From positions 357-64,356 of the IMG/VR virus record IMGVR_UViG_3300045257_000193: DNA of 64,000 bases. One strand, 5' to 3'. The notes beneath the pieces are model-generated. The model was not told the DNA's origin. It saw only the letters and a program-made list of their open reading frames with translations, and made no database searches. The translations under genes were made by a program, and so were the position numbers. Shown in pieces: positions 11,458 to 61,817 of the stretch (position 1 is its first letter; each line of letters starts with the position of its first letter). The stretch is from a virus (Duplodnaviria > Caudoviricetes).

Positions 11458-11605
11458 TTTGATTATTCCGAAGTAAATAATTAGTTTTGATTCAAGAATC
11501 GATCTGACACTATAGATTCAAAAAACATTAAAAGAATTGCCATTCTCAGAAAATTACCGAAGTCAGATCCGGTGAGAAGTACGTGGATGGCATCTTTATT
11601 TTATT
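11458..11605 (+). promoter_or_regulatory. Promoter plus two-hairpin kissing-loop leader 1
   Basis: TTTG(11458)-N20-TAGTTTTG(11482); loop GATCTGAC 11501-11508 complementary to loop GTCAGATC 11562-11569; stems GAATC/GATTC, TGCCAT/ATGGCA, TTCTC/GAGAA, ACCG/CGGT. Confidence 0.7.
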
Positions 11606-18176: not shown

Positions 18177-18521
18177 ATGTGTACATCTACTACAATATCG
18201 CCAGAAGAAGTTATCGATATCATTTGTCAATTCTACGAACTAGATGTTGAAAAATTAGTCAAGAGAAAAGAAACCGGACGGCATCACCGTTCTAAAGAAT
18301 ACGTAAAAGGACGCCAATTCTTCGCATACTGGATGATGAAAAACACAGAATTATCTCAAACAAAAGTTGGAAGATACTTAGATGGTGTTGACCATTCCAC
18401 GATCAGCCATTCAGTTGATACCGTTTTAGAAGAAATGAACTTGTATTCTCGCTATAAAAAGGAGATATTTACTTTAAATCAGCTAATACAGGAAAGAGAA
18501 GCAGCATTAGCAGTAGCATAA
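18177..18521 (+). CDS. DnaA domain IV-like HTH protein
   Basis: RQFFAYWM..SQTKVGRYLDGVDHSTISHS matches the DnaA C-terminal RDHTTV signature. Confidence 0.8.
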   Translation: MCTSTTISPEEVIDIICQFYELDVEKLVKRKETGRHHRSKEYVKGRQFFAYWMMKNTELSQTKVGRYLDGVDHSTISHSVDTVLEEMNLYSRYKKEIFTLNQLIQEREAALAVA

Positions 18522-18787: not shown

Positions 18788-19344
18788 TGGAGCAGGAAGA
18801 AGAAGTAAGAGAGGTGATGATTGAAGGGTATCCGGATTACGGAGTGGATACCCTTGGGAACGTTTGGTCGTATAAGAAGGGTATTAGAAAGAAACTAAAC
18901 CATACAATTGGATCGCATGGATATCCATATATTTCTACATCGGTAAAAAGTGTAGTAAAGAAATTTACAATTCACCGTCTCGTTGCTAAAGCATTTCATG
19001 AAAATCCGGAGAGCAAACCAATGGTTAACCACATAAATGGAATAAAAACCGACAATAGGGCAATCAATTTAGAGTGGTGTAATAATAGTGAGAATTTAAG
19101 GCATGCATATCGTGTAATGAAGGTTGTTCCACACAGTGTAGGAAAGTTTGGCGTTTTGCACCACAATTCTAAGCCAATAATTCAAATGACTAAGAATGGT
19201 GAATTTGTAGCGGAACATGCGGCAATAGCTGAAGCTGCAAGACATATAGGATTAAGTCACACATCTATAATCAAAGTACTATCAGGTAAAGGTTCAACTT
19301 GTGGAGGGTTTACGTGGAAATACAAGGAGGTGACTAGTGTTTAA
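18787..19344 (+). CDS. NUMOD4-HNH-NUMOD1 homing endonuclease
   Basis: IEGYPDYGVDTLGNV; IHRLVAKAF; [18 protein letters not shown]; GGFTWKY. Confidence 0.9.
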   Translation: MEQEEEVREVMIEGYPDYGVDTLGNVWSYKKGIRKKLNHTIGSHGYPYISTSVKSVVKKFTIHRLVAKAFHENPESKPMVNHINGIKTDNRAINLEWCNNSENLRHAYRVMKVVPHSVGKFGVLHHNSKPIIQMTKNGEFVAEHAAIAEAARHIGLSHTSIIKVLSGKGSTCGGFTWKYKEVTSV

Positions 19345-21400
19345 GCCTTTTGAAAATGGTACATCAGTTGTTATTCAGGATATAGAGATATTCTTGCCAC
19401 CCTTCCCTTTTGTGCCAAATTACTACGATGGGAGTGGTGATTTAATTGTTTCCGATGTTTTATTTTCAGATCAAGAAAAGGAAGGTCAATATTGGAGACG
19501 AGTTTTTGATCAAGTCTCTTATAATGAAAGGCGCAAGGAAGAAAAGCGACTTCAAAAACAGAACCCAGAATATATTGACGAAGACTTAGAGGAAATTAGA
19601 ATCCTTGAGTGGAAACGCCGTATGAACGGTGTTTGGATGATGAATAATGGCGATCCGGTCTATATGCCCGGCTTATATTATTTCTACCTAGCTCATTGGG
19701 TAATGGACACCGGATACGCAAAATTCAGGATACCAGACTTAGAAGATTTTTTATTTTGGCAGTATTGCTGTGAGGATCCATTATGCTTAGGTATGTTAAA
19801 GGTCACGGTTAGGCGTAACGGAAAGACGTACCAGGCAACAGTTAAGACTGCAGAGTATGTAATTAGACAAAGATTTAAGCACGGAGGAATACAGTCAAAA
19901 GCAGATGCCGATGCAAAAAAAGTTTATACTAAACACTTAATACAGCCATTAAAATATGTTGTTGACTTTTTCAAGCCAACGATGGACGAACAAAAAGGCG
20001 CAGCTCCTAAAAAGGAACTTTCATTATCTAAAACAATAACAAAAGACACTGATCAGCACGAAGCGTTTGAAACTGAACTTGGGTCTCTTATCGATTATAA
20101 GCCATCAGACATTATGGGTTATGACGGGGATAAATTACACAGATTCACGCACGACGAAGTTGGAAAGACCACATTAATAGACGTTTACGAAAGACACAGA
20201 GTTGTCCGTAAATGTTGTACGGATACCGAGACGGGCCATTATATCGGCAAAATGATAGCTACAACAACTGTTGAAGATATTGAAAAAGGCGGCAAGGAGT
20301 TTAAAGAATATTGGGACGGATCTAATCAAAAAAAGAAACATCCACAAACCGGACAAACAGAATCAGGATTGTACAGATTCTTTGTTCCGGCTTTTAGAAC
20401 AAAGCATTTTGATAAATATGGTTATCCGGACGAAGATCGCGCTAAGAAGGAAATATTGGCAATGCTTGAAAGCTATTCCAATAATCCCAAAATGCAGACT
20501 GCTGAGAGAAGGATGAATCCAATGACAGAAGCAGATCTTTTCGCATCTGATGCCGAACATTGCCCTTTTAACGTAGCCGTAATCGATAGCACGTTGCAAT
20601 ATATATCAATGCTTCCGGATAATGATAGGGAGCGTTGTAGAAGATTTGATTTGGTATGGGAAATTCCTGATGTAAAAGTAAAAGCAATCCCCAATTCAAC
20701 AAATGGTCGGTGGTCTATATCCTGGTTGCCGCCAGAATCTGATCAAAATCAAGTGCATGATAGCGGAGGTTCAGAACATAGATTTAAACCACTGAATGAT
20801 CATAAGTTTGCAATGGGGTGTGATCCGGTATCTATGGGTATAGAAGCTGTACACGGAAGTTCTTGTGCAGCCATAGCTGTCTATAGAAAGGCGGACGTTC
20901 ATCATGAGGCTGAATTGTTTTCCGAAAACTTTATAGCTGATTATGTGCATGACCCAGATAATCCAGAAGAGTTTTATGAAGACCAAATAATTGCTTGTTT
21001 CTTTTTTGGATGCGAAGTTCTTATAGAAAAAAACAAGTTCGATATTTACAATTACATGAAAAGGCGTGGGTATTTATCCTTTGTGATGTCTCAGCCTGAG
21101 AACACCGTATCTATCACCCACAAGGGAGAAATGAAAGAGGGGATATCTGCTGGTACATATACTATTGATTTATATGTAACAAGGTTAAAGTCTTGGTGGT
21201 CTCTACATGGTCACAGATGTAGGCAAGAAAGGGTTTTAGAGGACGCCAGAAGCTTTACCGTTAAAACTCGCGGCGAACACGATTTAACCGTTGCTTGCGG
21301 CTGGGCCAGACTTGCCGCGGAGAAACCATACAAACCGAAGACGGTTAATATACCGATCGGCTCACTATTTTCATTTAGGGAGCAACAAAGTAGACATTAG
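19337..21400 (+). CDS. terL: Terminase large subunit (crAss-like type)
   Basis: GLYYFYL adenine-binding region, RRNGKT Walker A, HDEVGK Walker B, MGCDP RNase H fold, HDLTVA. Confidence 0.9.
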
Positions 21401-21942
21401 TCTAATCGCCTCCAAAGGAACCCGCCAGCGATTTTGCCAGGAGTTTTAGATGCTATGACTATAGAGTTCATTCCTATTTTGTTATCATTATAGGCTTGTT
21501 TTATTGATTCATATACTTTAACTGGGATACTATCAATAGTAAGTTTTTCAATCCTTATACCAGCAATTCTATCCTTTCCGAACCTAGTTCGAACAGACCC
21601 TACTTTGCCAAGGGTATCATGAGAATGGTATTCATTTTCTTGATACGTACACCATTCTAAATTTTCAACTCTGTTATCGGTCTTTATACCGTTAATATGA
21701 TTAACGCATGGCTTATTATCCGGGTTTGGAATAAAGTGCAACGCAACCAGCCGATGCACTGTAAAAAACTTTCTTTTTGCATTATTACTTAATCCAATCC
21801 TAGGATACCCATATCTATTATTTGGAGTAGCTCTTTTCTTTTTCTGCTTAGTTGTCCAATAGTCTAATGAAAATACTTCTCCATTAGTATTTATAGTGTA
21901 TAGGTTTTCGTAATTAATAATTGGCACTTCTAAAATTTCCAT
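21397..21942 (-). CDS. NUMOD4-HNH homing endonuclease
   Basis: [13 protein letters not shown]; VHRLVALHF; [19 protein letters not shown]; ATG 21942 chosen because the upstream sequence is leader 2. Confidence 0.9.
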
Positions 21943-22050
21943 ATAACAAAATTGACCTTTACATACTAGGAATGTCTCACGATTCTGTTCTATAAAGGCC
22001 AATGATAAAGATTTTTTGCCCTATTGTGAGACAAGCGATAAACAAATATA
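21943..22050 (-). promoter_or_regulatory. Promoter plus two-hairpin kissing-loop leader 2
   Basis: TATATTTG (22043-22050, -); loop TGTCTCAC (22026-22033) complementary to loop GTGAGACA (21973-21980); stem TTGGCCTTTA/TAAAGGTCAA followed by TTTTG. Confidence 0.7.
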
Positions 22051-22104
22051 TGAAATATAAAAATAAAAAACTAAATTAGCGTAACTTATTGAAAATAATT
22101 AACT

Positions 22105-24498
22105 ATGAGGTCATTCTCCACAAGTTCAGATATATCTCTAATTACAGATAAATACCAGACGTTAAGTTCGGGGAGGCCCTCGCACTTAATCCCGCCCAAC
22201 CGAAAGGATAAGGCTTGGTGCCTACAAATGGTAAGGTGCGCTTACAACGAGTTCAGGAATAACTGTCCGAACTTGTTCTATAATGCTGCTGCCAACTACA
22301 CGGAAAATATACGATACTTTCAGGCACTCCTTGATCCGGAACGTTATATGGATCAGTATGATAATAATCAGTCAGTAACAGAGAACCAAACCAGCGTAGC
22401 AAGGGATAAGAGGATATTAAACGTTGCCTCTAAATATATCAGGATACTTAAAGGTAGATTGTCGGACCTGAAATTCGATATTACAGCTACTCCTATTAAT
22501 GCTTTGGCACGTCAGCATGAGGAGGAATTTACTTCTCGTATCCGTGCCGCAATGAAAGCAAAGAAAATTGCTGATCAGTATAATCTTCCTGAGATCAATA
22601 AAATGCTGCAGGAACTAGGGTTTGATAGTTTACCAGCAGATACCGAAGAATTAGAAATACAAAAGTCTAATTTATCAATGCCGTATCAAATGGCAATGAA
22701 TATTGAATTATTCTTACAGTATGCTAACCAGGTTGATAATTTAGAAAGAAAGTTACAGGAAGAAGACCTGGATGTTATTTTACAAGGGTGCTACGCTACA
22801 AAAGTTACAACGGATGCAGATGGTACACCAATAGCAGAGAAGATAGATCCAAGATCACTTTTAGTTGGATTTAGTAATACAGAAGATTTTAGGGACGTTT
22901 CGGAAATTGGCCAGTATAGGGCCATATCAGTACCTGAATTAAAAGAGGAAGATATCGACCAACAATTAACTGAGGATGATTATTTTGACATAGAAAATAA
23001 TGTTGCGGGAGTAAATGTTAATAATATTGACCGAGCTATTTATTTCGCGGATAAATATCTGTCTAAAAAAGTATTGATCTTAGATTTGTACTTTTATTCA
23101 TGGGACGAAGAAGTAAAAGTTCTAAAGAATAATTCCCAAGGGAACCCTAGAATTCACATGAAAAACTTCGACTATTACAGAAATAGAGAAGATGAATTCT
23201 ACAAAAACAATCCTGGCAAAGAAATATTCAGAACAAAAAATCAAGTTGTATACAAAGCATCGTGGATTGTTGGGACTGATTACTTATACAATTGGGGATT
23301 ATTCAGAGATACGGCTAGATCACAATCGGACCCATACAGAACTAAGTTGCCTATTCTCATTACGGCACCACTTATCAAGGATGGTCAGACTCATTCAATG
23401 ATGGATGAAATTAAACCAATTATTGATGCAGTTCAGTTAAACTGGCAAAGAATACAAGAAGTAGTTGCAAAAGCAATGCCACCAGGGTTTACTATTGATC
23501 CTAATGGGCTTATGGATGCAGTTCAAAGTATCGGAGACAAAAAATACGATTTCCAAAAATTGCTACAAATGGCAACAAAGGAAAACATTCAATTAGTTTC
23601 AGCGAGTAAATATGCAGCTCATGGCAATAAATCTGTAGAGTTGAATTACGGTGGATTAGGTCCTGACTTCCAAGGATGGATTACGGCACTTAATTACAAT
23701 CTCACTTTAATTCAAGAGATTACCGGATTCAATTCAGTTGCGGCAGGATCACCTGAAAAATACATGGGGAAAGGTGTTTCTGATAACGTAATGCAGACAG
23801 CGGACTTCTCTATTAAACACTTATACGAAGCAAAGCGCATGCATTGGGAAGATATCAATAGGCTGAAAACAACCTTGGGTATGGATCTTATTGCATCCGG
23901 GAAAGCGATTGGCATTAAGAAAGCAATCGGATCAGAAGCATTCGATTACATGCAGATCAATGCACAGGCAAGTAAATATGAATATAGTATTTCTGTTAAC
24001 TATAGAGCATCAGCTGAAGTTTGGGCAGATCTATATGCTGCAGCTAAAAATGCCCAGGCAGTCGGTCCGGAACAAGGTGGTATTACACTAGATGACTACC
24101 TTCAATTAACAGAGTGTACAACATTAAAACAAGCAAAGGCATATCTGTATATAACAATTAAGAATCACAGAAGACAAGCGCAGGATCAGCAACGTCAAAT
24201 TGTACAAGAGAAAGCGCAATCGGATCAGGAAACAGCTAAAAATTCTGCAATGATTCGCCAGCAAGAGTTACAGGCACAGGCTGAAATTGATTCTAATAAA
24301 ATAAAAATGCAATTAGATGCAGATCTTACAAAGTTGAAAGCTACGCATGAGTATACAATGATTGAACAGGAAGCTCAAAATCAAAGTAAATCAAATCATA
24401 TCGTAACTAAGGAAACGTATAATTTGCAGGATACGCAGATTAAGGCCAATGCCAACATAGACAGGCTTAGAACTACTGGCAGCGGCGTTGAAAAATAA
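22105..24498 (+). CDS. Portal protein
   Basis: 797 aa after TerL; EKIDPRSLLV and IQEITGFNSVAAG motifs; Gln-rich C-terminal coil as in P22/crAss portals. Confidence 0.85.
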   Translation: MRSFSTSSDISLITDKYQTLSSGRPSHLIPPNRKDKAWCLQMVRCAYNEFRNNCPNLFYNAAANYTENIRYFQALLDPERYMDQYDNNQSVTENQTSVARDKRILNVASKYIRILKGRLSDLKFDITATPINALARQHEEEFTSRIRAAMKAKKIADQYNLPEINKMLQELGFDSLPADTEELEIQKSNLSMPYQMAMNIELFLQYANQVDNLERKLQEEDLDVILQGCYATKVTTDADGTPIAEKIDPRSLLVGFSNTEDFRDVSEIGQYRAISVPELKEEDIDQQLTEDDYFDIENNVAGVNVNNIDRAIYFADKYLSKKVLILDLYFYSWDEEVKVLKNNSQGNPRIHMKNFDYYRNREDEFYKNNPGKEIFRTKNQVVYKASWIVGTDYLYNWGLFRDTARSQSDPYRTKLPILITAPLIKDGQTHSMMDEIKPIIDAVQLNWQRIQEVVAKAMPPGFTIDPNGLMDAVQSIGDKKYDFQKLLQMATKENIQLVSASKYAAHGNKSVELNYGGLGPDFQGWITALNYNLTLIQEITGFNSVAAGSPEKYMGKGVSDNVMQTADFSIKHLYEAKRMHWEDINRLKTTLGMDLIASGKAIGIKKAIGSEAFDYMQINAQASKYEYSISVNYRASAEVWADLYAAAKNAQAVGPEQGGITLDDYLQLTECTTLKQAKAYLYITIKNHRRQAQDQQRQIVQEKAQSDQETAKNSAMIRQQELQAQAEIDSNKIKMQLDADLTKLKATHEYTMIEQEAQNQSKSNHIVTKETYNLQDTQIKANANIDRLRTTGSGVEK

Positions 24499-24535
24499 TA
24501 ATTTGTATTAATGATTTTTATTATTAACTTTGGTT

Positions 24536-24607
24536 AAAGTTTAGTTAGATAAGTAGTTTAAATTAGGTTTAAGTTAGCCGGGGGTAGTAGCTCGGCTAAC
24601 TTTTTTT
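24536..24607 (+). ncRNA. Candidate trans-acting small RNA (~70 nt)
   Basis: TTTG(24502)-N19-TAACTTTG(24525) promoter; no ATG; ends in intrinsic terminator AGTTAGCCGG..TCGGCTAACT plus T-run. Confidence 0.6.
24571..24607 (+). terminator. Intrinsic terminator
   Basis: GC-rich hairpin AAGTTAGCCG/CGGCTAACTT plus poly-T. Confidence 0.8.
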
Positions 24608-24615
24608 GCCTCATA

Positions 24616-24650
24616 AAAAAACTACCACACAAGTTAATGTATGGTAGCTT
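24616..24650 (-). terminator. Intrinsic terminator of the 24681-24953 gene
   Basis: On - strand CTACCATAC/GTGTGGTAG followed by a T-run. Confidence 0.6.
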
Positions 24651-24680
24651 AGAAAACATAAACAAACCAGAAAGAAAGTT

Positions 24681-24953
24681 TTAAGCGTCTAATGCAATAA
24701 TTGCGGCTACGGTTAATGTAGACTCGTAAAGTTTTGCTGCAAACTTTGATGGATCAGCATATTTGAATAAAGACTGTACACCAGTTGCGGCAGTTACCGC
24801 TGCTGATACAGAACTCATTTCAACAATATAAGCCTTATTAAAAGTTTGTGTTACTGCATTCGCGGCTAATTTTCTAACTCCGCCTGGGAAGTCTGGAATT
24901 AAACCAAGCTCACCTTTAACTACTGGAATTTGTAAGAAAGTTGTAGTGCCCAT
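24681..24953 (-). CDS. Small Ala/Thr-rich protein, possible capsid decoration protein
   Basis: 90 aa with its own terminator; structural-protein-like composition. Confidence 0.5.
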   Translation of the reverse strand: MGTTTFLQIPVVKGELGLIPDFPGGVRKLAANAVTQTFNKAYIVEMSSVSAAVTAATGVQSLFKYADPSKFAAKLYESTLTVAAIIALDA

Positions 24954-25034
24954 AATTTTTTTATTTTAATTGATGGGATAAAAATAGGCTAAATTAAATT
25001 TTCAATTTATAATTATACCATAAAAGGTAAGTTA

Positions 25035-25346
25035 TTATTTTTTCACATTAACTCCAAGTATTCTCCTAAATTCATATTTTAATTGTCTTCCTGATTCTGA
25101 TCTTGAAAAAGCGCATAACTCACATGCGAATAAAAGTGTCACATGATACCTCTTTCTGAGTAAAACTTCTGGCGCATCAAACAACATACTTTTATGTTTG
25201 AAAAAATCAATACCCTCTTCACCTAGCTTGTGAAAATTTTTAACCCACCGGCTATAATGTTCAGGCTTATATCCCAAGGCTATAAAAAGGCTTCGGGAAT
25301 CTACACAACTAATAGAATTATATTCTGTAACCTTAAAACTTTTCAT
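25035..25346 (-). CDS. AntA/AntB-like antirepressor
   Basis: VDSRSLFIALG..YSRWVK..EGIDF..YHVTLLFACELC; TACCTTTG box at 25387-25394 (-). Confidence 0.7.
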   Translation of the reverse strand: MKSFKVTEYNSISCVDSRSLFIALGYKPEHYSRWVKNFHKLGEEGIDFFKHKSMLFDAPEVLLRKRYHVTLLFACELCAFSRSESGRQLKYEFRRILGVNVKK

Positions 25347-25422
25347 TAACTAATCATAAACGGTAAGTTGCCATTTTACTAATAATCAAAGGTATTATTT
25401 TTAGGCCAGAAAAACTACAAAC

Positions 25423-26529
25423 ATGGCAGAAAATACAGATAATACACAAGAACAGGTAGCGGAGGCCATAACAAGCACCCATAACCCGTTTGAACAGGTT
25501 GAAGAAGCGGCAAGCAGACAATTCGTAGCTAACGAAGTATTTGGTGATCCAGTTGAAGAAACTGCTGCAAACCAAGAGGATGCTAATACAGCTACCACTC
25601 CGGCAGCAACCCCTCCTGCAGACGAGCAGGTTGAAGAAAATGATGACCCGGTTTCTTGGCTAAATGAACAGTGGAGGGCACAAGGAGTTAAAATTGAATC
25701 CCTTGATGATATTCCATATATAGTTAGTGAATATCAAAAGTTACTTGCAATAAAGAAACCAGACTATACGCCGGAAGAAATTGCAAGGATTAAACTTGGA
25801 AGAGAAACTGGGAATTGGGGATTATATGATGAAATAGTATCTATTGATACTAAAACAATCAATATTAAAAACCCAGAAGAGGCAAAAGATATAATGAAGA
25901 CCAAGTTTATACTTGAGCATCCAGAAATGTCAAGACCTTTTGCGGAAAAGTTATTTGAAAAGAATTTAAGTAAAACATTTTCTGAAGAAGATTCAGAAGA
26001 GTTTATAGCACAATATTTAGAACACGAGGCTGCAATAGCAAAGAAGTGGTTAGAGGAAAAGAAGGCTTCAATCAATATCGCTGAGGATAGCACCGTTGAG
26101 GAAGTTAAACAGACAGATGACCAGTGGTTTGCTCAAGTAGATAAGGTTATTAATCAAATAGTACAAGACAAGTTACAGGTAACTTATGAAGTAGAAGATA
26201 AGGCGGTTAATGTGGTTATTGACCAAGATGAACTTCGAGAACTAAGGGACGCAATGGACTCGCCTCAGACATGGTTGAGAGATAACATTCTAAATGAAAG
26301 AGGGGAATACGATCATGAGAAACTGGCACATCTTATTATCAAGGACCTTCACAGTGCAAAAGTTAATAAAGAGTTCTATGAACTTGGCCGAGTTCACCAA
26401 GAGCAGCACCTATTAACAAAACAGCGTGGCACAACCATGCAAACAACAGCTACAGGAGCACCAAGGAACAATTCTGATCCAAGGGACGGAGTAGCAGATG
26501 CTTTCTCAAAATTAACTAGAGGTTACTAA
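25423..26529 (+). CDS. Putative capsid scaffolding protein
   Basis: Very acidic helical protein directly upstream of the major capsid gene. Confidence 0.65.
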   Translation: MAENTDNTQEQVAEAITSTHNPFEQVEEAASRQFVANEVFGDPVEETAANQEDANTATTPAATPPADEQVEENDDPVSWLNEQWRAQGVKIESLDDIPYIVSEYQKLLAIKKPDYTPEEIARIKLGRETGNWGLYDEIVSIDTKTINIKNPEEAKDIMKTKFILEHPEMSRPFAEKLFEKNLSKTFSEEDSEEFIAQYLEHEAAIAKKWLEEKKASINIAEDSTVEEVKQTDDQWFAQVDKVINQIVQDKLQVTYEVEDKAVNVVIDQDELRELRDAMDSPQTWLRDNILNERGEYDHEKLAHLIIKDLHSAKVNKEFYELGRVHQEQHLLTKQRGTTMQTTATGAPRNNSDPRDGVADAFSKLTRGY

Positions 26530-34680: not shown

Positions 34681-34832
34681 TGTAGGGCACAAAATTAAAG
34701 CCCTAATGATCTCGTACATCAATTAGGGCTTTGTTGATTATGCTCTACTAAAGCATAGATTGGAAAGACTTTCATAGGTGTACGAGACCCGATTTATATA
34801 TTCAAAATTAATACTATTTTTCAATAGTACAA
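34681..34832 (-). promoter_or_regulatory. Promoter plus two-hairpin kissing-loop leader 3
   Basis: TTG-N19-TAATTTTG (34803-34810, -); loop TCTCGTACA (34779-34787) complementary to loop TGTACGAGA (34710-34718); 11-bp stem AAAGCCCTAAT/ATTAGGGCTTT. Confidence 0.7.
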
Positions 34833-34843
34833 TAGATAATTTA

Positions 34844-37800
34844 TTATTTATTTGTCCTTTGATTAATTTGAGAATACAAGTTCAGATACCTAAGACGGAA
34901 TAAGCTATCCCCATCGTAACGGAAAGTAACATTGAACAAGTGAGAACTAATAAGGTTGCCTTCCCACTTGCTCAATCCGGATGAAGTATCTCCCGGAACA
35001 TCACATTGCCAATCTTTATTTATACGTTCAAAGGCACCATTCTCAATTGTTGTAATCTGGCCATCTTGGTTAGTGATTGACTCACACCAAAGAGGCGTGT
35101 CGCTTTCCTGAGATATAAAGTTGGCTATCTTCTGCATATTTGGTTCTGCATTAAATATAACCTCAATACGGCTAGGATATTTTACACCATAGAAAGTATT
35201 AACCGGACCTGCTTCATGTTTATACATCTTACCATCCTTAAAAGTGTAAAGCTGCAGCTGAATATAAGCGAACTGCTCAGGAAGGAAACTAAAGAAAGAT
35301 GACCATGTATTTGGGTAATCCTGACTTGCCGGATCAATGAATCCTATATTTTCATCATCAAATCTAAAGTATTGAGTTCTAAACTTTGGGTCAAACCCGG
35401 TAAAGCATCTATCCGAAACTTTGTTATAGAAATATGATCGCGCTTTGTAGTTACCGGATATATCGAATATGCTGTTGAATGTGTTATATCTTAAAGCGCA
35501 CCCTTTTAGCTTGCTCCAGAAATAAATATAGTCATCATATTTGTTCACTGATTCGGGGTTAACGCAGCCATATCCACCAGGCAGCTTTCTTGCTGAGTTC
35601 AATAGGTGATCTGATATGATAAGGTTATCGCTTCCATCCGCATTCGCAAGCATGGCTTTATTAACATATACAAGCGCTGCTTCCTGCTCACAATTTATAA
35701 GAAGTATTTGTTCTTGGGAAGTCATCTTTCTGATAGCACCCCATGTATAATCTAATTGATATGAGTTAAAGGAATAGAATGTACTTGTTCCATTAATACT
35801 TGCCCCATCAATATATCTGTCTGAATATCGAATGGTGTCCCTTCTTCTTGTTTGTCTTTCACCGTCAAGTAAAACAACGTTTGGCCTACCATTAGCCTTC
35901 TCCCATATTCCAGCTCTATTTAAGTTATCCGGACTCATAGAGAAGAAAGGATATTGAGAATAGCCTCTGCCTAAACTAAAGTCAATTACGCCTCTTTTTC
36001 TATAATTTATTCTAATGTCCTTAGCGTACATTGGAGCATACATCATATAATGCGTGTCCCCTTCAAATATACTGAACGAGGTTTTAGAATATTGTCTCAG
36101 ATCGGTTTTAGAATTATTTATAGGATAACAATCGCCATATTCATAAAAGAATATATCATCTGATCCAGTATGAGGTGTATATATTTCAATAAATGCACCT
36201 GACCCTAAAATATTATCTTCCAGCAATCTTTGGTCGAATTTAACTTTAAGGTATCTACCCTCAACAAAATCCTTTATTTCAAGATCAAGAATACCTGAAT
36301 ATGTTCCAGTGCTAGAATAGTAAATATTTAATCTATCTCCTGATTGAAAAACGTATGGAGTTTCACAAGAGGGGTTGTATACTTGTCTTGCAACGGTATT
36401 CGTACTATTAAATTGGTTTTCTTCAAAGTTGGTTGTATTGTTCCAGTTATAAATATCTATTAGAATATCAACAGCTGAATCAAGCCCTGCTTTAGAGAAT
36501 TCATTTATTTTCTCCCCTCTACGGTTAACTCCGCCTACATATATTGCGGTCCCGTCAGGGGAGTATCCAATTATATAATCATTTTCATCACTATTAAATG
36601 GAACACTATCTGGCGTTCCTGGCCAAGTATAGTGTTGTACTGGCTTATATCTAGCTTGAGTAAATATTAAACCAGCTTGGTTATAGTTTCCTCCGGCACT
36701 TTTTGCCCAATATGTTACCTCTTTGTATATTGGCTTATCAGTATCGCTAAGGCCATATTCATATACTGGAAGTGGGCTACTCCAATCATTCCCATCAGCA
36801 ATCATGTTGTTTACCCGTCTTTCTCCTGGAGTTGCGCCAAGCGGAGGTAAATAAAGAGTTACATTTTCTTTTGTTTGTGCAGCGGCAGTTCCAATTACTT
36901 TTCTTATGAAAGATGGATTACCATTAGAGTCATAGCCAGATACATATAGGATATCATTCGTAATACCCTGTACAAATCTTGTAACTTTATTATTGTTTGT
37001 TCTAACAATTTGATAATGTGTTGCCCATTCTGGCGGAGATCCAGCGATATCAAAGTCAAAACACCAAACTTTCTCCTTGTCACCAGCCCTATAATCCGGA
37101 GGTGTTAAAACTTTTAATCGTTGGTCTGTGTAAACGCCCGACTTTTGTCCAAACTCATTATAAAAAACAAGGCCTATTTCATATTTAGAATTATTCTTCC
37201 ATACCATGAAATTCCCAACTAATTCTGCTTGGCTAGGTCCTGTAATTGTATCGGTAAAATAATCTACACTTTTTCTTCCCTGACTAACATTTCCAATAAC
37301 CAAATTAAATTCAGCAAACCCTTCAAGCGTGTTTCCTATAAGATTTCTATTATCTACTGTTTCAATAGTTTCACACGGCCAAATATCATCATATGGCCGC
37401 TCAGTATCAGTTGGTGCTATTACGCTAAAAGATAAATCATTTCTAAATTGTACAGATAAATCTTCATTACTGCCATATACGGACAAATCAGTATCGGATA
37501 ATATTAATTGATCCCATTCAGTCTGATTGATAACTTCATCTACTTTAGTTCTTTTAAATAATTTAAAAGGCCCTAAATATGTATTTGCGTATGCAAAATC
37601 TATATATTTAATCTTTGTATTATAGTAAAGTCCGTCAATACCTCCAGCTCTAAAGACCCTAAACTCATTGATTTTAAATTGAGAATAAATGGCATCATCT
37701 AAAACTAGCGTAGTATATTTACTGCTAACTAGTTTAGAATAAGGTGACCAAGAGCTTTGTTGCCCATTGTCATATACAAATCGATATATGAAATAGTAGT

Positions 37801-38341
37801 TTTCTTTCCGGTAAAAATTAGTATTAACAACTCCAGTTTGCTGCAATTGTATTTGCAAAGGAAACGTGGGTGGAGTTTTTATTAAAGACATATCAAACTC
37901 AATTGGATCAAATAAAAATTCCAATACGTTTATTTGTCTTGGGTATTTAGATCCACCTTCAGTCCATGTAAGTAAGTTGTTTATAAGCGTTACGGAATGA
38001 ATGATCAAGTCTGATTCCCACCCCAAATTGCCAATAACTAATTGAGTAAAATTAGTGCCATCAAAAACACTTATCGAGTCGTTATTATTTGAATTCCAAG
38101 TAAAAACGTATATTTTATTTTTTGATGTATCAGAATACTTACCTATTGTTTTATTATCCCCAGGCGCAAGTGCATTTGGAATCTCGACATTACCCAATAC
38201 CGGTTCGATAATACCATCTTTACTATTGTTTACAATATTTACCCTACAGTTTTCAACTCTTCTAGAAAATGTTTTGTCTACACCTTCATCAGCAGTATCA
38301 AAATCCATTCCGATTACAACTCTTTTATCCTGTAGATTCAT
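34844..38341 (-). CDS. Tail stabilisation/muzzle protein (P22 gp10-like, crAss-like)
   Basis: GMDFD..GNVEI N-terminus, FIYRFVYDNGQQSSWSPYS, YEIGLVFYNEFGQKS, GGYGCVNPES, WSSFFSFLPE, NTFYGVKY. Confidence 0.8.
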   Translation of the reverse strand: MNLQDKRVVIGMDFDTADEGVDKTFSRRVENCRVNIVNNSKDGIIEPVLGNVEIPNALAPGDNKTIGKYSDTSKNKIYVFTWNSNNNDSISVFDGTNFTQLVIGNLGWESDLIIHSVTLINNLLTWTEGGSKYPRQINVLEFLFDPIEFDMSLIKTPPTFPLQIQLQQTGVVNTNFYRKENYYFIYRFVYDNGQQSSWSPYSKLVSSKYTTLVLDDAIYSQFKINEFRVFRAGGIDGLYYNTKIKYIDFAYANTYLGPFKLFKRTKVDEVINQTEWDQLILSDTDLSVYGSNEDLSVQFRNDLSFSVIAPTDTERPYDDIWPCETIETVDNRNLIGNTLEGFAEFNLVIGNVSQGRKSVDYFTDTITGPSQAELVGNFMVWKNNSKYEIGLVFYNEFGQKSGVYTDQRLKVLTPPDYRAGDKEKVWCFDFDIAGSPPEWATHYQIVRTNNNKVTRFVQGITNDILYVSGYDSNGNPSFIRKVIGTAAAQTKENVTLYLPPLGATPGERRVNNMIADGNDWSSPLPVYEYGLSDTDKPIYKEVTYWAKSAGGNYNQAGLIFTQARYKPVQHYTWPGTPDSVPFNSDENDYIIGYSPDGTAIYVGGVNRRGEKINEFSKAGLDSAVDILIDIYNWNNTTNFEENQFNSTNTVARQVYNPSCETPYVFQSGDRLNIYYSSTGTYSGILDLEIKDFVEGRYLKVKFDQRLLEDNILGSGAFIEIYTPHTGSDDIFFYEYGDCYPINNSKTDLRQYSKTSFSIFEGDTHYMMYAPMYAKDIRINYRKRGVIDFSLGRGYSQYPFFSMSPDNLNRAGIWEKANGRPNVVLLDGERQTRRRDTIRYSDRYIDGASINGTSTFYSFNSYQLDYTWGAIRKMTSQEQILLINCEQEAALVYVNKAMLANADGSDNLIISDHLLNSARKLPGGYGCVNPESVNKYDDYIYFWSKLKGCALRYNTFNSIFDISGNYKARSYFYNKVSDRCFTGFDPKFRTQYFRFDDENIGFIDPASQDYPNTWSSFFSFLPEQFAYIQLQLYTFKDGKMYKHEAGPVNTFYGVKYPSRIEVIFNAEPNMQKIANFISQESDTPLWCESITNQDGQITTIENGAFERINKDWQCDVPGDTSSGLSKWEGNLISSHLFNVTFRYDGDSLFRLRYLNLYSQINQRTNK

Positions 38342-38710: not shown

Positions 38711-38827
38711 AGTAGTAAGGTTTAGGTTAATACAAATATATTCAAAATTATATGTAATAATAGCAAAAATTTTAGATATTATTAGTAAAATTGGTTAATA
38801 TTGTTAATGTAAATAAATGATACCAAT

Positions 38828-41375: not shown

Positions 41376-44300
41376 ATGCCAGAAGCAGTAATACAAAGAG
41401 CGGATCAATATCTAGCAGACAAATTTAATAACGGTGTTTTAACACCTGATAAATCAGCCGCATTAGTTGCGAATCCTGAGGTATATAATAATGCATTGGC
41501 TAAAATGTATACCGATAAATATTCAGGATCATTTGAAGATTTTGACAAGTTTAAATCCGCATATCAATCCCAATACGGTGATCCTTTTAAAAAAAAAGAA
41601 CCATCGGCACCCTCTTCAACAGAAAAAAAGGTACAGAGCTTCGATACAAAGCAGAGAATACAGCAACCATTGACGACAGCTCTTCAGGAGGCAGCTACGC
41701 CAACACAAGAAACGTCTTTAGAGAATTATGTAACGCCATCCGACGGGGCACAATTAGCTACATTCCAAACTGGTGGAGAAAGAAAACAGATTCCTGTAGC
41801 CGATGCATTACAACCATTAAGCACGCAATCAAAGCAGCAAGAAGCGGATGCACTGCGTTCCGAACAGTATTCAAAAGGGCTTTTGCAGAATACCAATCAG
41901 GCACCTACGACAGCAATACCGAAGACTGATTTTTCTGTCGCATCAGAATCAACAGTCCCACAAATAAATAAGCCATTAACATTTGATGAAGCCAAGAATT
42001 TATCTTTTGGCAATGTACCGACTGTTATGGATGAAGCTTTAGGTTCGGCAAACGAATTTCTTGCCCCCTTAAACAAGGCTGTATATGATGCAATACCTCA
42101 AGCAGTACTTACATTAAATAATATTGCTGGATATGGAGCAGAAAAGTTCACAGGAACGCCATCACCATATACTTTTGAGGAATATAATAAAGCCTACGAC
42201 AATTCGTCTCCTATGGGGAAGGCCGCAATGTGGCTAACCGGAATCAAAGAAGCTACAATGTGGCATGATTTTAATGAAGAAAATATGTCCGCTTCTCCTG
42301 AATTTGAGCAAAGTATTTTAGGTGGGGTTAGTTCTGGATTAGGCCAAGGAATTACTATGATCGCCGGGACTGGCGCCGTAAATATGCTTAGTAAAGGTAA
42401 GCAATTATTGGATGCAGCAAAATATGCCAATGCATTATCAAAATCAGGATCAATTATAGGCGCAGGTGCTCAGGCGGCTAAAACGATTGCTACACAACCA
42501 GCAACATACGTTGCCGCATCACAAGTATTCAATTCTGAATTTCAAGATGCTTATAATCAAACAGGTAATGCCGATGCTGCTTTTAAGTCCGCAGTAATAA
42601 ATACTGTTGGGTCAGCTGGTCTTGAAGCTATGCCTATTATGTCATTTATGGGTAGGCTAGATAAAGTAACTGGGGGAGGATTAAAACAAACATTAATAAA
42701 CGGATTTAAGGGTGGTCTTGAAGAAGCAACAACTGAGGTTTTGCAGCAAGCGTTATCAAATATGGTAGCATCCAATTTGTATGATGACACCAGAAATATT
42801 ACTGATGGCATGGTTCAATCAGGCGAAGTTGGAGGGTTGACCGGATTTGCATTGAATATTATAGGCGCATCCCTTGGAGCTAAACTAAGAGCAACAACGG
42901 ACCCATATGAGGCTCAGGAAATAAAGAAGACTCAAGAATATGTTCAAGCAAAAAAGGATTTATTTGATAAAGAGCAAGAACAGATAGTCGCAAATATGGA
43001 AAATCAGATAATATCAATGAATACTACTGAAATGCAAAAACAACTAAATGTAGAGAATATAACACCTAAAGAATTTTCCAATGTAATGCAGGTTATGCAA
43101 ACTATGCCTAACTCAGAAGCAATTACGCCTAAAACTGTAGGGGTTACAAATAAGATCAATGGCTTATTAGTTGAAAAACAAGATATATATTCTAACGTAT
43201 TAAGCGTTGAGCAACAAGAGGTAGCAGATAAAAGAGCTGAAAAAATAGATACAGAAATAAGAGATCTTACAAATACTATTGGTGAGATATATGCTAACCC
43301 ATCCAAAAAACAAATAGAAGAAAATGATAATAAAATTGGGCAACAAGTTCCAGGTGAAGAGCGAATCGGGCAAGAATCTGAGCAAGCCAAACCTATCGAA
43401 ACAACAAGCGGAACGGAGACTGAAACAAGTCGAGATATTCAAGCACATGAAGAAGTAGCTCCTAATCAGGAAGAGGATTTGACCGACCCTGAAGTAATTG
43501 CTACTAAATATCATGAAGAACGAACAAATCCGGTACATATTACCCCAGCAGAACGCGCTATTGCAGACTTGTTAAGATCGGGTGTATCCAAAGAAGGAGT
43601 TAGAAGACAAGGTGATGTTAATAAATTTAATAACTCCATGGCGCGCGCTTATTTTAAAGAAGGTGCAAATACTATTGATCAGGTAGCACAGCAAGCAAGC
43701 AGCACTATCAATCCGGAAGGTGATGGAAATGAAGTTACCCCGGAAGATGTGTGGGATTTTATGAATAAATACCCACAAGGTCCCGACCAAATTGATAGAC
43801 CAGCGGGAAATCCAAGATTAAGGGAATTATCCGATAAATACGAAGAGGTAACAGGCAAGCAGTTAAATAAAACAATAGCTAAAAAAATAGCTGAGGCGAA
43901 ATCAACACCACCTCAAAATATTAAAGAAGATCCTAACTCAGTAATTGATAAATATACGGATGAGAATGGGGATGTAAAGTTAGATGAACTTGAAAAAGAT
44001 ATATCGGCATTACCGTTCCTATATGATTTAACACCAGAAGAAACTAAAATAGTAGAAAATTATGTCAAAGAGAGCAGAAAAGCTGACCGAACTAGTAGCG
44101 AAAGCACTAGCGCAATACCGGTTGAACAACCCGAAAGAAAAACAACCATTGCCGACAAATCAGAAACCATCCGCGAAATAAAGGATAAGAAGCTAACCCA
44201 TGTAAAGGGAGTGGCAATGGGCAGCGGAGTTGCAAAAGGTACCTATTTAAGCACCGAGAAAGGCAATAGATACCAAGGCCGTGGTAAAAAGTTCAATGCT

Positions 44301-47300
44301 GATGTAAATATTAAAAATCCATATACTACATCAGAGAATAATCTGAATAAAGAGCGTGGGGATGTGCTCAAAAGCAATATCAATCAATTCTCCGAAACAG
44401 ATTTTGAAGGCGCAGAAATACCTCCCAATCCAATAATAGATGACTTGAGTAACTCCGGCACTGAAAAACTAGCGGACTTATTCACAAAGAACTTACAGGA
44501 TCAAGGATATGATTCTATGTACTTCCCGGAAAGTAAAACCCAGGAAGGCGAACTTGTCGTATTTGACAAAGGTAAAGTAACATTAACAGAAGATCCCGAA
44601 ATTACGGATGCTATGAAGATGTCGCGTGAGGCATATGATCAGAAATATCCAGAAGGTAATTATGATGAAGCACGCGCTGAATATACAAAAGATACAGAAA
44701 ATCTACAGGAGGCTAATAAAAAAGGAGAAACTTTAGAAGGAGTTATCCTAATGGAGAAAGGCTTTTTGAAAGCAGTTCCAATGGACACACGTTTCAAAAA
44801 AGGTACAGACAAGTTAAAGCAAGCATGGATCAAGGCAACAAGAGTTGGCGGCGCTATTCCATTTGATCTCGTTTTCAACTATTCCTATATACGAAAAAAT
44901 ACTATCGCTCAAAAGATTGAAGAAGTTGAGCATACAATGAAACAGGTAGAAAAATCTATTACTAAACACCTTGGGGGTAAAAGCAAAGTTACAAAAGAAC
45001 AATTAGTAGCTATCGACCATGTATTACACGGGGAGACGCCTTCTATAATTCTTCCTTCTGAAGTATTAGCTGAAGTTTCAACATTAAGAAGTGTTATTGA
45101 TGGATTATCACTTGAAATGAAAAACTCTGGGATGCTTTCAGATTCAATGCAAGCAGTTATTGATCAGAATATGGGTACATACCTGAATCGTTCATATAAG
45201 AAGTGGAATGATCCAGTATGGAAAGAGAATGTTCCGGAAGAAACGATGAATAAAGCTGTTGCTTATCTTAAAAATGAGTACATCAAATTTTATACTGCCA
45301 AATATCAAAAGTCTCAGGAGGCGTTTAAAAATAAGGATAAGCGCATTCGTGATTTCAGAACTACTATTGCAAACAAGCAATCTAAAGTTGATGAAAATAA
45401 TGCCAAATTAGCTGAATATAAATCCAAACATGATGCATATATAGCTAAGATCGACAATAAGATAAAGTCATTAAAGAAACGCCCAAATAAAGAGCAAGTA
45501 GGCCCTGATTTATCTGGCAAAACCAAGCAGACAAAACACGAAGGTAAAATAGCGTATCTTGAAGCAGTTAAAGCTGATTCTATTAAAGACTTCAATTCTA
45601 TATACGATACTAAAAAATCTCAATTTGATAAGCAGAATGCAAAAATAGAGGCCGCCATAGCTAAAGCTGAGAATGCAGCATATAATATGCAGCAGAAAAA
45701 CTATCCGGAAGTAATGAAGGAAAGTTTGGATAAGTTTACAAGCCCTGACGATGGGGAAATAAGCGCACTTATCAATCAAATCCTTTATGCGCCAACGGAT
45801 AATATCAACCCAAGTGGTAAAGCCGGAGCAATATCAGGATCATTCTTAAAGCAGCGTAGTGAAAGATTAAATCAAAGTCCAGAGATAAGAGAATTAATGG
45901 GTGAATATCAAGACCCATATATTAACTTCTTGTCTACGGCAAATAAAATGATTACTTCTATTCAGAACTATACTTTCCAGAAGCAATTAAAGGCTCAAGG
46001 AATGGGTACTATATTCTCTGATAAACCAACAGGTGATTTCCACCGACAAATTGAAGGGGATGCATGGAAAGGATTAATAGAAGATGGTGATGTATACACT
46101 ACAGAAACATTTGAAGCGGCATTAAAAGAACTAAACGGAATGATTCAGCAGGATATGAGTCCTGGAATGAAAACATTTAGGGCTATCGTATCCTTAGTTA
46201 AAGTAGGCAAGACTGCAGCGTCTGCTCCAGGAGCCGTAGCCAATTATATTTCTAACGTATCAAATATTGTTAGTAATGCATGGAATCCTACGTATGCAGC
46301 AAAAAAATGGGTTCAGTTAAGTAGACCACAATTAGTAGAAGAGATAAAAGATCTAAAAAAACTAGGTATTTTAGGGCAAAGTGTTTCTGGTAGAGAGTTA
46401 GCTGATCGTATTAAAGATACAGCTGGATATGTGCCTTTTGAAACTTATTTAGAATCGGTACCCGGATTAGACATTTTCTCAAAAGGAATAAAAGGTATAG
46501 TTTCTGGCAGTAAAAAGATATTTGAGGTTGGTGATGAATACGCCCGCGTTATTGGATTCTATGCAGAGGTTGAAAGATATCGTACAGTTCATACAGATTG
46601 GACCGAAACTCAATTACGTGATAATGCAGCTAAGATTGTATCCAATAATTCGCCAACATACGATCTGGCCTATCCATGGGTTAAAAACTTCAGAAATTCT
46701 CCTTGGTTCTCAACATTTGCGACATTCCCTGCAGAGATTTATAGGACAACCACAAATCAAGCATATCAAATTAAGAAAGACCTATCCAAGTCTGAAACAA
46801 GGGCTATCGGCGTAACGAGATTAGCCGGAATATTAACTTCAATGGGTTTTGGAGCTTATCAGATTATGCAAATGGCAACCACCATGATTAGCGGGGATGA
46901 TGAAGATGAAAGGGATTTAAGATTATTTGTTCCTGAGTATTCAAAATTTAATCCATTGCTATTATATAGAAAAGATGGTGACGAATACACATATACTGAT
47001 GCCGGCAGATTTACATACTATAACAATTTCATATCTCCAATTATAGCTTTCTCAAATGGAGATATAGAAAAAGAGGAATTTGATTCAAGAATATATAATT
47101 CCATTGGACAGATGTTACAGCCATTTACTGATATAAATATTGTCACAGAAGCGGGTGCTGATATTGCATTTGGATATAAGTCTGGTACCGATGAAAAAAT
47201 ATATAGCGAAAATGATTCAAATACAGAAAAACTACGTAAAATATCTGAGCATATCGGGAATAAACTGGAACCAACAAATGTTAAGGTGGGCCGCAGCTTT

Positions 47301-60637: not shown

Positions 60638-60684
60638 AGTAGTAGTAATTAAATAGGTTTAAATGATAGGTTTAAATGATAGGT

Positions 60685-60756
60685 TTAGATAGATGTAACA
60701 ATAGTAATAAGTGCAATGAATGCGGTAATAAGCGGAAGTAGTAAAAAGATTTTCAT
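60685..60756 (-). CDS. 23-aa hydrophobic peptide
   Basis: MKIFLLLPLITAFIALITIVTSI; conserved leader and promoter-like box directly upstream. Confidence 0.5.
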   Translation of the reverse strand: MKIFLLLPLITAFIALITIVTSI

Positions 60757-60875
60757 AAGTAGTAGTAGTATTTTAGGTTTCTTTAATTATTATACTGTAA
60801 AGATAAGGTAAAGGTTTCGTTTATGCAACAATTATTTAATTTATTTTTACTATTTATTTGTAATTTATAACTAAT

Positions 60876-61357: not shown

Positions 61358-61382
61358 AGTAGTAAGTATAAATAGTTTAGGT

Positions 61383-61817
61383 TTATTTAATAAGTGAGTT
61401 GTATTTTTGCTCCATAAATGTGTCAATTTCTTCGTATAATTCTCCATCCCAAAAACGACCGGAATTTTTCGATTCAAATTCAACAGCCCACTTCATTAAC
61501 AAATTGATTGCGCCTATTTGCCCGATTTCTTGCTTTGAAGCTATTTTAGTTACATAATTACCAGACGCACACATAATGCCGAATGTTTCAGCAAATGAAA
61601 TAAATATAGGGTGCTGTGCCATGTATACAATATCAGACATATCCATTAATTCCCATAATCCTATAACATCATCTGAACTATTAAATATATCTCCGCATTG
61701 GTCATTTTGTTGAATAGCATATATAATACTTTCCTCTTGATCTTCATCAATTAAAATATTGTCCGCTGATTCTATTTTAATTTGATTTGTTCCTATTGCA
61801 ATAATTTCAGTTTTCAT
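61383..61817 (-). CDS. Acidic early protein
   Basis: ATG 61817, first gene after the promoter at 61851. Confidence 0.6.
   Translation of the reverse strand: MKTEIIAIGTNQIKIESADNILIDEDQEESIIYAIQQNDQCGDIFNSSDDVIGLWELMDMSDIVYMAQHPIFISFAETFGIMCASGNYVTKIASKQEIGQIGAINLLMKWAVEFESKNSGRFWDGELYEEIDTFMEQKYNSLIK

What the first reader, a model, noticed from the sequence alone, without database searches (positions are those of the whole stretch)
24502..24607. Small RNA antisense to the shared translation-initiation leaders of early genes
Seen: a consensus promoter and a strong terminator delimit about 70 nt with no start codon. Its unstructured 5' half (UUAGAUAAGUAGUUUAAAUUAGGUUU) is complementary to the AAACCUA...ACUAC(U)-AUG leaders at 60756 (ATAAGTAGT and TTAGGTTT blocks), 60637, 61357, 38710 and 18177. 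Inference: a trans-acting sRNA that blocks initiation on several early or host mRNAs, in a phylum that lacks Shine-Dalgarno-led initiation. It could act as an early-to-late or lysogeny switch.
Basis: partly seen in the sequence, partly recalled or inferred. Interest (0 to 1): 0.75.

Follow-up and report, generated by a model that had tools for sequence, protein, structure and literature searches.

The report
Orphan promoter-terminator RNA after portal gene
Right after its portal gene, this phage of flavobacteria-like hosts keeps a conserved promoter and terminator that probably make a 70-base non-coding RNA, but the proposed pairing of its 5' half to gene leaders is no better than chance.

Summary
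The anatomy is real. A Bacteroidota-type promoter (TTTG-N19-TAACTTTG, 24502-24532; predicted +1 at 24537) precedes a 34-nt C-free segment with no start codon and a 12-bp intrinsic terminator (24571-24602, then T7). It lies in a convergent gap between the portal gene and a minus-strand two-gene cassette.

The unit is under selection. Four-fold synonymous sites of portal are saturated (0.36 identity). Even so, all four available relatives keep a promoter at the same place, a hairpin with 6 compensated pairs, and the loop GTAGT(A/G)G.

The claimed antisense match of the 5' half to the leaders is not above chance. Duplex energies and complementary k-mer counts equal those of dinucleotide shuffles. 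The named leaders are generic best targets of any shuffle. The 5' half is the least conserved part.

One signal remains. The conserved hairpin loop is Watson-Crick complementary to ACUACU(AC) next to AUG in 4 of 97 leaders (9 of 400 permuted loops do as well). In a 60%-identity relative it matches 7 of 75 leaders (5 of 400).

No RNA data exist for this contig.

Verdict: a likely small RNA that shares the portal terminator; its target is unproven. It would be a new member of a known kind.

The parts
22105..24498 (+). Portal gene (797 aa). Its mRNA would end at the same terminator.
   Evidence: PHROG portal phrog_6547, E 2.7e-51. Relatives at 83, 84 and 60% aa identity.
24502..24505 (+). -33 element TTTG, 3 nt after the portal stop codons
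   Evidence: Present at the same place in all 4 relatives.
24525..24532 (+). -7 element TAACTTTG (TAHHTTTG type), 19 nt after the -33 element
   Evidence: L005 has TATATTTG. L002 and L004 have TAAATTGC, which fits the TAnnTTGY motif SM5 of F. psychrophilum (PMC9723704). The consensus and the G at -5 are from PMC6847099.
24537..24570 (+). Predicted transcribed 5' segment: 34 nt, no C, no start codon. It holds the ATAAGTAGT and TTAGGTTT blocks.
   Evidence: It is the least conserved part (0.53, 0.53 and 0.32 identity). Its pairing to leaders is at chance.
24571..24602 (+). Terminator hairpin: 12-bp stem and 8-nt loop GGTAGTAG (24583-24590)
   Evidence: RNAalifold gives 12 pairs, 6 of them with changes on both sides; the G-U pairs fit the + strand only. 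The loop GTAGT(A/G)G is kept in 4 of 4 relatives. Loop complementarity to leaders.
24601..24607 (+). Run of 7 T (the first two are counted in the stem); predicted 3' end of an RNA of about 70 nt
24619..24650 (-). Separate intrinsic terminator of the convergent minus-strand cassette (13 pairs, T7)
   Evidence: Identity to relatives is 0.78-0.91, and 0.72 to L005.
24651..24680 (.). A/C-rich tract, the best conserved piece of the gap. It lies in the 3' UTR of the 90-aa gene if read on the minus strand.
   Evidence: 28 of 31 positions identical in L002 and L004, 20 of 30 in L005. Its complement pairs to leaders at chance level.
24681..24953 (-). 90-aa gene of unknown family, the last gene of the convergent cassette. 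A weak AntA-like gene lies at 25035-25346.
60638..60690 (-). Leader of the 126-aa DUF7222 gene: three tandem AAACCTATCATTT units, then ACTACTACT-ATG. This is the best predicted partner of the 5' half and also matches the loop complement.
60757..60790 (-). Leader of a small hydrophobic ORF (ATG at 60756) with AAACCTAA and ACTACTACTACTT-ATG
61358..61390 (-). Leader with AAACCTAA and ACTTACTACT-ATG (ATG at 61357)
38711..38740 (-). Short leader AACCTAAACCTTACTACT-ATG behind a TATATTTG box, at the head of the muzzle-like virion protein operon

Best explanation
The region 24502-24607 is a conserved orphan transcription unit. A host sigma-A-type promoter sits directly after the portal stop codon. Transcription is predicted to start at about 24537 and to stop at the same intrinsic terminator that ends portal mRNA. 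The product would be a non-coding RNA of about 70 nt. This layout matches 3'-UTR-type small RNAs that have their own promoter.

Shown here:
- The sequence elements are present.
- They are kept under selection in three diverged lineages.
- The hairpin is formed by the + strand RNA.

Inferred:
- The promoter fires.
- The RNA acts as a riboregulator.

The 5' half evolves almost neutrally, and its match to leaders is explained by composition: a C-free RNA against G-poor leaders. The only single-stranded sequence that stays fixed is the hairpin loop GUAGU(A/G)G. If the RNA, or the portal mRNA 3' end that carries the same hairpin, works by pairing, the loop is the likelier contact. Its complement ACUACU(AC) sits directly before AUG in a small set of genes.
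For: Promoter:
- TTTG-N19-TAACTTTG fits the published consensus.
- It is one of only 6 intergenic TAnnTTTG boxes that have a TTG 17-22 nt upstream. The other five precede a gene within 13-117 nt.
- A full match of TTTG-N18-20-TAHH(TTTG or TTGY) stands at the same place in 4 of 4 relatives. It arises in only 0.6-1.2% of shuffled spacers.
- The variant box of L002 and L004 equals a promoter motif described in Flavobacterium.

Selection:
- Four-fold sites of portal are 0.36 identical between the window and every relative. Against that, the promoter is 0.74-0.77 identical and the hairpin 0.75-0.81.

Hairpin:
- 12 pairs, 6 with compensatory changes, and wobble pairs that fit only the + strand.
- Fold z-score -3.17.

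Loop:
- At least 7 of 8 positions match the window in each of L002, L004 and L005 while the stem changes.
- With 0.36 neutral identity, 7 of 8 matches has a chance of about 0.004 per lineage (my arithmetic).
- The loop complement is enriched in leaders. It reaches at least 6 nt in 4 of 97 leaders, against a mean of 0.77 for permuted loops (9 of 400 as good). It reaches at least 7 nt in 2 leaders (4 of 400).
- In the relative G001 it reaches at least 6 nt in 7 of 75 leaders (5 of 400) and all 8 nt in 1 (8 of 400).

Coding:
- There is no start codon in 24537-24607.
Against: - No transcript evidence exists. A start at 24537 is a prediction from a consensus.
- Only 4 sequences from 3 lineages could be compared.
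- L002 and L004 lack the sigma-A box proper.
- A conserved promoter-like string just after a stop codon could serve another purpose.
- The loop-leader match rests on a motif (A at -3 and -6) that translation itself may select, and both partners are invariant, so there is no covariation. When G-U pairs are allowed the enrichment vanishes.
- A covariance model found no further copies in 255,020 plus 639,499 bases of held loci.
- Rfam has no match for this stretch.
Confidence: 0.5

Rival explanations
1. The region is only the 3' UTR and intrinsic terminator of portal mRNA. The promoter-like string is not used and no separate RNA is made.
For: - The hairpin lies where a terminator is needed, before a convergent cassette that has its own terminator.
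- A-T-rich DNA yields such boxes by chance: 85 TAnnTTTG in the window, 74 of them not fully intergenic.
- No RNA run was available to check.
Against: - The full two-element promoter is kept at one fixed place in 4 of 4 relatives despite saturated neutral sites.
- The 60-72 nt spacer between stop codon and hairpin is kept in all relatives.
- A plain terminator does not explain a fixed loop sequence.
Confidence: 0.25
2. One reading: the single-stranded 5' half (24537-24570) pairs with the shared AAACCUA...ACUACU-AUG leaders of several early genes and blocks their initiation.
For: - Exact 9-nt and 8-nt complements to the 60756 leader, and 7-8-nt blocks in four more leaders.
- The five named leaders rank 1, 2, 4, 5 and 10 of 97.
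- The orthologous leader in the relative G001 (gene at 5219) is also that phage's best leader: -13.0, reached by 11 of 1500 shuffles.
Against: - Energies and k-mer counts equal those of shuffles.
- 60637, 60756, 61357 and 38710 are the top hit in 73 of 150 shuffles, so composition picks them.
- Per-leader tests give 11, 18, 35, 50 and 27 of 150 shuffles as good.
- At least 12 genome windows pair better in both phages.
- The 5' half is the least conserved part.
- In G001 the two blocks stand in the opposite order to the leader.
- The minus-strand conserved tract, another G/U-rich sequence, scores the same.
Confidence: 0.07
3. The unit is a promoter-proximal terminator that acts as a regulated gate, like lambda PR'-tR' with its short 6S transcript. 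The short RNA is the default product, and antitermination would let transcription run on towards the capsid genes from 25423.
For: - The + strand genes from 25423 have no TAnnTTTG box of their own in the 77-nt gap upstream.
- Lambda 6S RNA is a short terminated transcript that Q extends (bioRxiv 10.1101/2024.10.31.621285, passages).
Against: - Read-through would run antisense across two minus-strand genes for about 0.7 kb.
- No antiterminator gene was identified.
- This model does not explain the fixed loop sequence.
Confidence: 0.1
4. The shared words act at DNA level. AAACCTA would be an operator for a phage DNA-binding protein, found on the minus strand here and as three tandem copies before the DUF7222 gene.
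For: - Three tandem AAACCTATCATTT units lie at 60650-60690.
- TTAGGTTT is kept in L002 and L004.
Against: - AAACCTA is not enriched overall: 17 copies against 14.1 +/- 3.6 expected.
- The word is not kept in L005, and the tandem repeat is absent from G001.
Confidence: 0.05

Closest known systems
3'-UTR-type small RNAs with their own promoter that share the terminator of the upstream mRNA (for example DapZ and MicL of enterobacteria; recalled, not from a call)
   Same: The promoter is placed at the very end of a gene. The RNA is short and ends at that gene's intrinsic terminator. There is no ORF.
   Different: This one is encoded by a phage, in a phylum without Hfq-type examples. No transcript or target has been shown. 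The 5' part is not conserved, whereas such sRNAs usually keep their seed.
Phage antisense RNAs that block initiation of antirepressor mRNA: P22 sar (68/69 nt) and P1/P7 c4 (77 nt) (review PMC12197685, passages)
   Same: Similar size. Proposed action at translation start regions. c4 is said to present its complementary sequences in loops. A weak AntA-like gene lies in the neighbouring cassette.
   Different: sar overlaps its target; this unit overlaps no gene. The leaders of the two cassette genes are not among the 15 best predicted partners. No immunity function is evident.
Lambda 6S RNA from PR' to tR' (bioRxiv 10.1101/2024.10.31.621285, passages)
   Same: A promoter is followed closely by a terminator, giving a short RNA by default.
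   Different: No Q-like factor or downstream co-oriented late operon directly follows. Convergent genes lie behind the terminator.
Chromosomal small RNAs of Flavobacteriia, for example Rfp18 of F. psychrophilum, whose pairing region is a stem-loop (PMC9723704, passages)
   Same: The same promoter grammar, an independent short transcript with strong structure, and pairing proposed through a loop.
   Different: No sequence relation was tested or seen. Rfam gives no family for this stretch.

Membership tests
Intrinsic (factor-independent) terminator | G+C-rich hairpin directly followed by a U run on the transcribed strand | tested here: met
   12 pairs, 6 of them G-C, an 8-nt loop and 7 T
Intrinsic (factor-independent) terminator | Structure kept by compensatory change in relatives | tested here: met
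   6 of 12 pairs changed on both sides; the wobble pairs fit only the + strand
Bacteroidota sigma-A promoter | -7 box TAnnTTTG (TAHHTTTG) with a -33 TTTG about 19 nt upstream | tested here: met
   TTTG-N19-TAACTTTG; consensus from PMC6847099
Bacteroidota sigma-A promoter | Conservation of the elements in relatives | tested here: met
   The sigma-A box proper is kept in 2 of 4 relatives (window, L005). The other 2 (L002, L004) carry TAnnTTGY, a motif the source paper links to an alternative sigma factor. With either box the full promoter stands at the same place in 4 of 4.
Bacteroidota sigma-A promoter | Mapped transcription start | not testable with these tools
   No RNA run was listed for this DNA
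Trans-acting base-pairing small RNA | Discrete stable transcript | not testable with these tools
Trans-acting base-pairing small RNA | Conserved single-stranded seed | tested here: inconclusive
   The 5' half is not conserved (0.53 and 0.32 identity). The loop is conserved in 4 of 4 relatives.
Trans-acting base-pairing small RNA | Target complementarity above chance | tested here: not met
   The 5' half is at chance. The loop alone gives 9 of 400 and 5 of 400 permutations as good, counting Watson-Crick pairs only.
Any Rfam family | Score at or above the gathering threshold | tested here: not met
   The only hit in the window is Flavo-1 at 62035-62108. In 24400-24750 all 9 weak matches have E of 0.32 or more and lie far below threshold.
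Small protein gene | Start codon and open frame | tested here: not met
   No ATG, GTG or TTG in 24537-24607. The 68-aa frame of L002 is closed in the window.

The most novel reading that the evidence does not exclude
The conserved loop GUAGUAG is carried both by the small RNA and by the portal mRNA 3' end. It would be an anti-start-site seed for a phylum without Shine-Dalgarno pairing. It would kiss ACUACUAC-AUG, the phage's own version of the A(-3)/A(-6) start context. In this way it would tune translation of a cluster of small genes (60637, 60756, 61357, 38710, and their counterparts in the relative G001). This would parallel the C-rich loops of staphylococcal regulatory RNAs that bind Shine-Dalgarno sequences (recalled, not from a call).
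Probability: 0.12. Interest if true: 0.75.

Novelty: new member of a known kind. Interest (0 to 1): 0.38.

Why it matters
Phage-encoded small RNAs are known almost only from phages of Proteobacteria. A 2025 review text holds no occurrence of words beginning 'Bacteroid' or 'Flavobacter' (PMC12197685). My searches for such RNAs in Flavobacterium or Bacteroidetes phages returned nothing relevant.

A conserved small RNA in a crAss-like phage of a Flavobacteriia-type host would be a first handle on post-transcriptional control in a phylum that lacks both Shine-Dalgarno-led initiation and Hfq (the absence of Hfq is recalled, not from a call). The loop-to-start-site idea is directly testable with reporters in Flavobacterium johnsoniae.

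As it stands, the evidence shows a conserved unit, not a function.

Tried and rejected
- No RNA holder was listed for the stretch. Only one DNA run was listed, and it may be the source sample. I did not lay reads.
The contigs behind 13 closer portal relatives (P0002-P0014, 54-87% identity) could therefore not be read. This is the main limit on the comparative test.
- A megablast of 22000-26000 against phages found nothing. tblastn with portal found 85 records, all below 60% identity (best rows 19-22%): Flavobacterium 68, Cellulophaga 15, Maribacter 1, Caudoviricetes 1.
- Other scans for relatives:
  - An exact 21-nt pattern found 1 contig, which was already held.
  - The 90-aa protein profile found the same 3 contigs.
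  - The portal profile on genome contigs found 1 distant MAG contig at 23% identity.
  - A looser DNA pattern gave at least 116 mostly chance hits. The covariance model matched none of the 78 listed loci I gave it, out of 80 listed; I left out L003 and L129, which are contigs already held.
- I rejected a pseudoknot between the loop and ACTACC at 24621-24626, because L002 changes one side only.
- I rejected a conserved small ORF in the gap.
- I tested whether the conserved minus-strand tract is an anti-leader RNA. Its k-mer counts are at chance; its top-5 energy was matched by 5 of 120 shuffles.
- Cognate against cross pairing gave no clean pattern: -18.4 and -13.0 for the cognate pairs, -16.7 and -5.3 for the cross pairs.
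- Supplements of PMC9723704 (promoter tables, SI D5) were not opened. They may say which sigma factor reads TAnnTTGY.
- timed out and was rewritten. Searches were my own slips in coordinates or term syntax, and I corrected them.

Full report
**Context.** The window is nearly all of a 64,356-base linear IMG/VR virus record, with completeness estimated at 60%. It encodes a large terminase (19337-21400) and a portal (22105-24498). It also encodes a 1165-aa virion protein with a crAss muzzle C-terminal domain and a 2122-aa virion protein. The nearest named phages, at about 19-22% portal identity, infect Flavobacterium, Cellulophaga and Maribacter. A Flavo-1 RNA motif lies at 62035-62108. Only 6 of 97 leaders carry a Shine-Dalgarno core. 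A is enriched at -3 (0.63) and at -11 to -13 (0.60-0.65). This is the start-site pattern described for Flavobacterium johnsoniae (PMC6847099, passages). A Bacteroidota host is therefore a sound inference. The only run that holds this DNA is a soil metagenome.

**The observation.** The finding lies in a convergent gap. Portal ends at 24498. A 90-aa gene (24681-24953) and a weak AntA-like gene (25035-25346; Pfam 26.2 bits, below the cut-off of 27) run the other way. The gap holds two back-to-back one-way terminators, one for each strand.

On the + strand, TTTG (24502-24505) and TAACTTTG (24525-24532) stand 19 nt apart. With G at -5 the start falls at about 24537. From there to the T run at 24601-24607 is about 70 nt with no ATG, GTG or TTG.

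**Is the unit more than chance?**
- The strict two-element pattern occurs 8 times in the window, against 3.2 +/- 1.7 in simulated sequence.
- Among 11 fully intergenic TAnnTTTG boxes, 6 have a TTG at 17-22 nt upstream. Five of those precede a gene within 13-117 nt. This one has no gene to serve.
- Four related sequences could be read: L002 (83% portal identity), L004 (84%) and L005, which is identical to L006 over the stretch read (60%).
- Four-fold synonymous sites in portal are only 0.36 identical between the window and each of them, so neutral positions are saturated.
- Against that background the promoter stretch is 0.74-0.77 identical, the hairpin 0.75-0.81, the minus-strand terminator 0.78-0.91 and the A-rich tract 0.90. 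The proposed 5' seed region is 0.53, and 0.32 to L005.
- All four sequences keep a full promoter at the same spot. L005 has the consensus TATATTTG. L002 and L004 have TAAATTGC, which matches the TAnnTTGY motif SM5 reported for F. psychrophilum promoters (PMC9723704, passages).
- Such a match arises in 0.6-1.2% of shuffled spacers.
- The hairpin has 12 pairs, 6 with compensatory changes, and its G-U pairs work only on the + strand.
- Its loop keeps GTAGT(A/G)G in all four sequences while the stem is rewritten.

I conclude that promoter, hairpin and loop are under selection. This favours a real short transcript over an idle 3' UTR.

**The proposed mechanism.** I extracted 97 leaders (-40 to +9) and tested the 34-nt 5' part against them.
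- The best duplex is -18.4 kcal/mol (60637). Dinucleotide shuffles of the RNA average -17.4 +/- 2.1, and 51 of 200 do as well. The top-five mean is matched by 36 of 200.
- Leaders holding a complementary 6-, 7-, 8- or 9-mer number 44, 22, 8 and 3. Shuffles give 50.4, 21.9, 8.3 and 2.7.
Four of them (60637, 60756, 61357, 38710) are also the top hit in 73 of 150 shuffles.
- The reason is composition: the RNA segment has no C and these leaders have almost no G.
- Across the whole window at least 12 of 8526 sliding windows pair better than any leader.
- A second natural G/U-rich sequence, the minus-strand conserved tract, behaves the same way.
- In the relative G001 (50.5 kb) k-mer counts are again at chance.

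One hint remains. The ortholog of 60637 (a DUF7222 protein) is also the best leader in G001: -13.0, reached by 11 of 1500 shuffles. However, at least 12 genome windows beat it, and the paired blocks stand in a different order.

**What the shared leader is.** ACTACT-ATG places A at -3 and -6 (and -9). In 60637 it also gives A at -12 and -13. These are the positive determinants measured in F. johnsoniae. The motif directly before ATG occurs in 4 of 97 leaders, or 5 if ACTACA is counted. It recurs in the small-gene cluster of G001. It is a strong start context, not evidence of a common regulator.

**The loop.** I singled out the loop for its conservation, not for its complementarity, so testing its complement is fair.
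- Counting Watson-Crick pairs only, the window loop matches at least 6 nt in 4 of 97 leaders (-25 to +9). Permuted loops average 0.77, and 9 of 400 do as well. It matches at least 7 nt in 2 leaders (4 of 400).
- The G001 loop matches at least 6 nt in 7 of 75 leaders (5 of 400) and all 8 nt in 1 (8 of 400).
- With G-U pairs allowed there is no enrichment.
- Loop and motif are both invariant, so there is no covariation, and the two phages are not independent.

This is a lead, not a finding.

**Comparison with known systems.** The layout is that of small RNAs that start inside or just after a gene and share its terminator (recalled). The proposed action resembles sar and c4 of P22 and P1/P7 (PMC12197685). 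The promoter-then-terminator layout resembles lambda 6S RNA. No Rfam family matches, and a covariance model of the four sequences finds no further copy. I found no report of a small RNA in a phage of Flavobacteriia or Bacteroidetes (searches; review text).

**Verdict.** This is a conserved orphan promoter-terminator unit that probably yields a 70-nt RNA (confidence 0.5). The multi-leader antisense role of its 5' half is not supported (0.07). A loop-based contact with ACUACU-AUG start sites is the boldest reading still open (0.12). Expression data and more genomes would settle it.

Noticed in passing
window 24651-24680: An A/C-rich tract between the minus-strand terminator and the stop codon of the 90-aa gene is the best conserved piece of the gap. 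It is identical at 28 of 31 positions in L002 and L004 although synonymous sites are saturated. It looks like a typical A-rich start region on the + strand, or a G/U-rich 3' UTR on the minus strand. Its complement pairs to leaders only at chance level.
   Followed up: partly
window 62035-62108 (+): A Flavo-1 RNA motif (RF01705, 48.4 bits against a gathering score of 42) sits inside this phage contig, on the strand opposite to the surrounding genes.
   Followed up: no
window 60650-60690 (-): Three tandem 13-nt units (AAACCTATCATTT) fill the gap between a small hydrophobic ORF (ATG at 60756) and the DUF7222 gene (ATG at 60637). The relative G001 has no such repeat at the matching place.
   Followed up: partly
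window 21397-22002 (-): An HNH endonuclease gene lies between the large terminase and portal genes. By their ORF maps, L005 has no gene in that gap and L002 has a 143-aa + strand ORF instead. The HNH gene looks like a lineage-specific insertion.
   Followed up: no
window 34844-38341 (-) and 41376-47744 (+): A 1165-aa protein carries a crAss muzzle C-terminal domain (Pfam E 1.3e-06). A 2122-aa protein matches a virion structural PHROG. This points to a crAss-like virion in a phage whose only DNA holder is a soil metagenome.
   Followed up: no
window 18177-18521 (+): A 114-aa protein has a DnaA C-terminal helix-turn-helix domain (Pfam E 4.5e-13) and lies just upstream of the packaging genes.
   Followed up: no
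window 34681-34832 (-) and 11458-11605 (+): Other host-type TAnnTTTG promoters are followed by structured leaders. At 34803 there is a terminator-like hairpin with a loop complementary to an upstream segment. Promoter-proximal hairpins may be a theme of this phage.
   Followed up: partly
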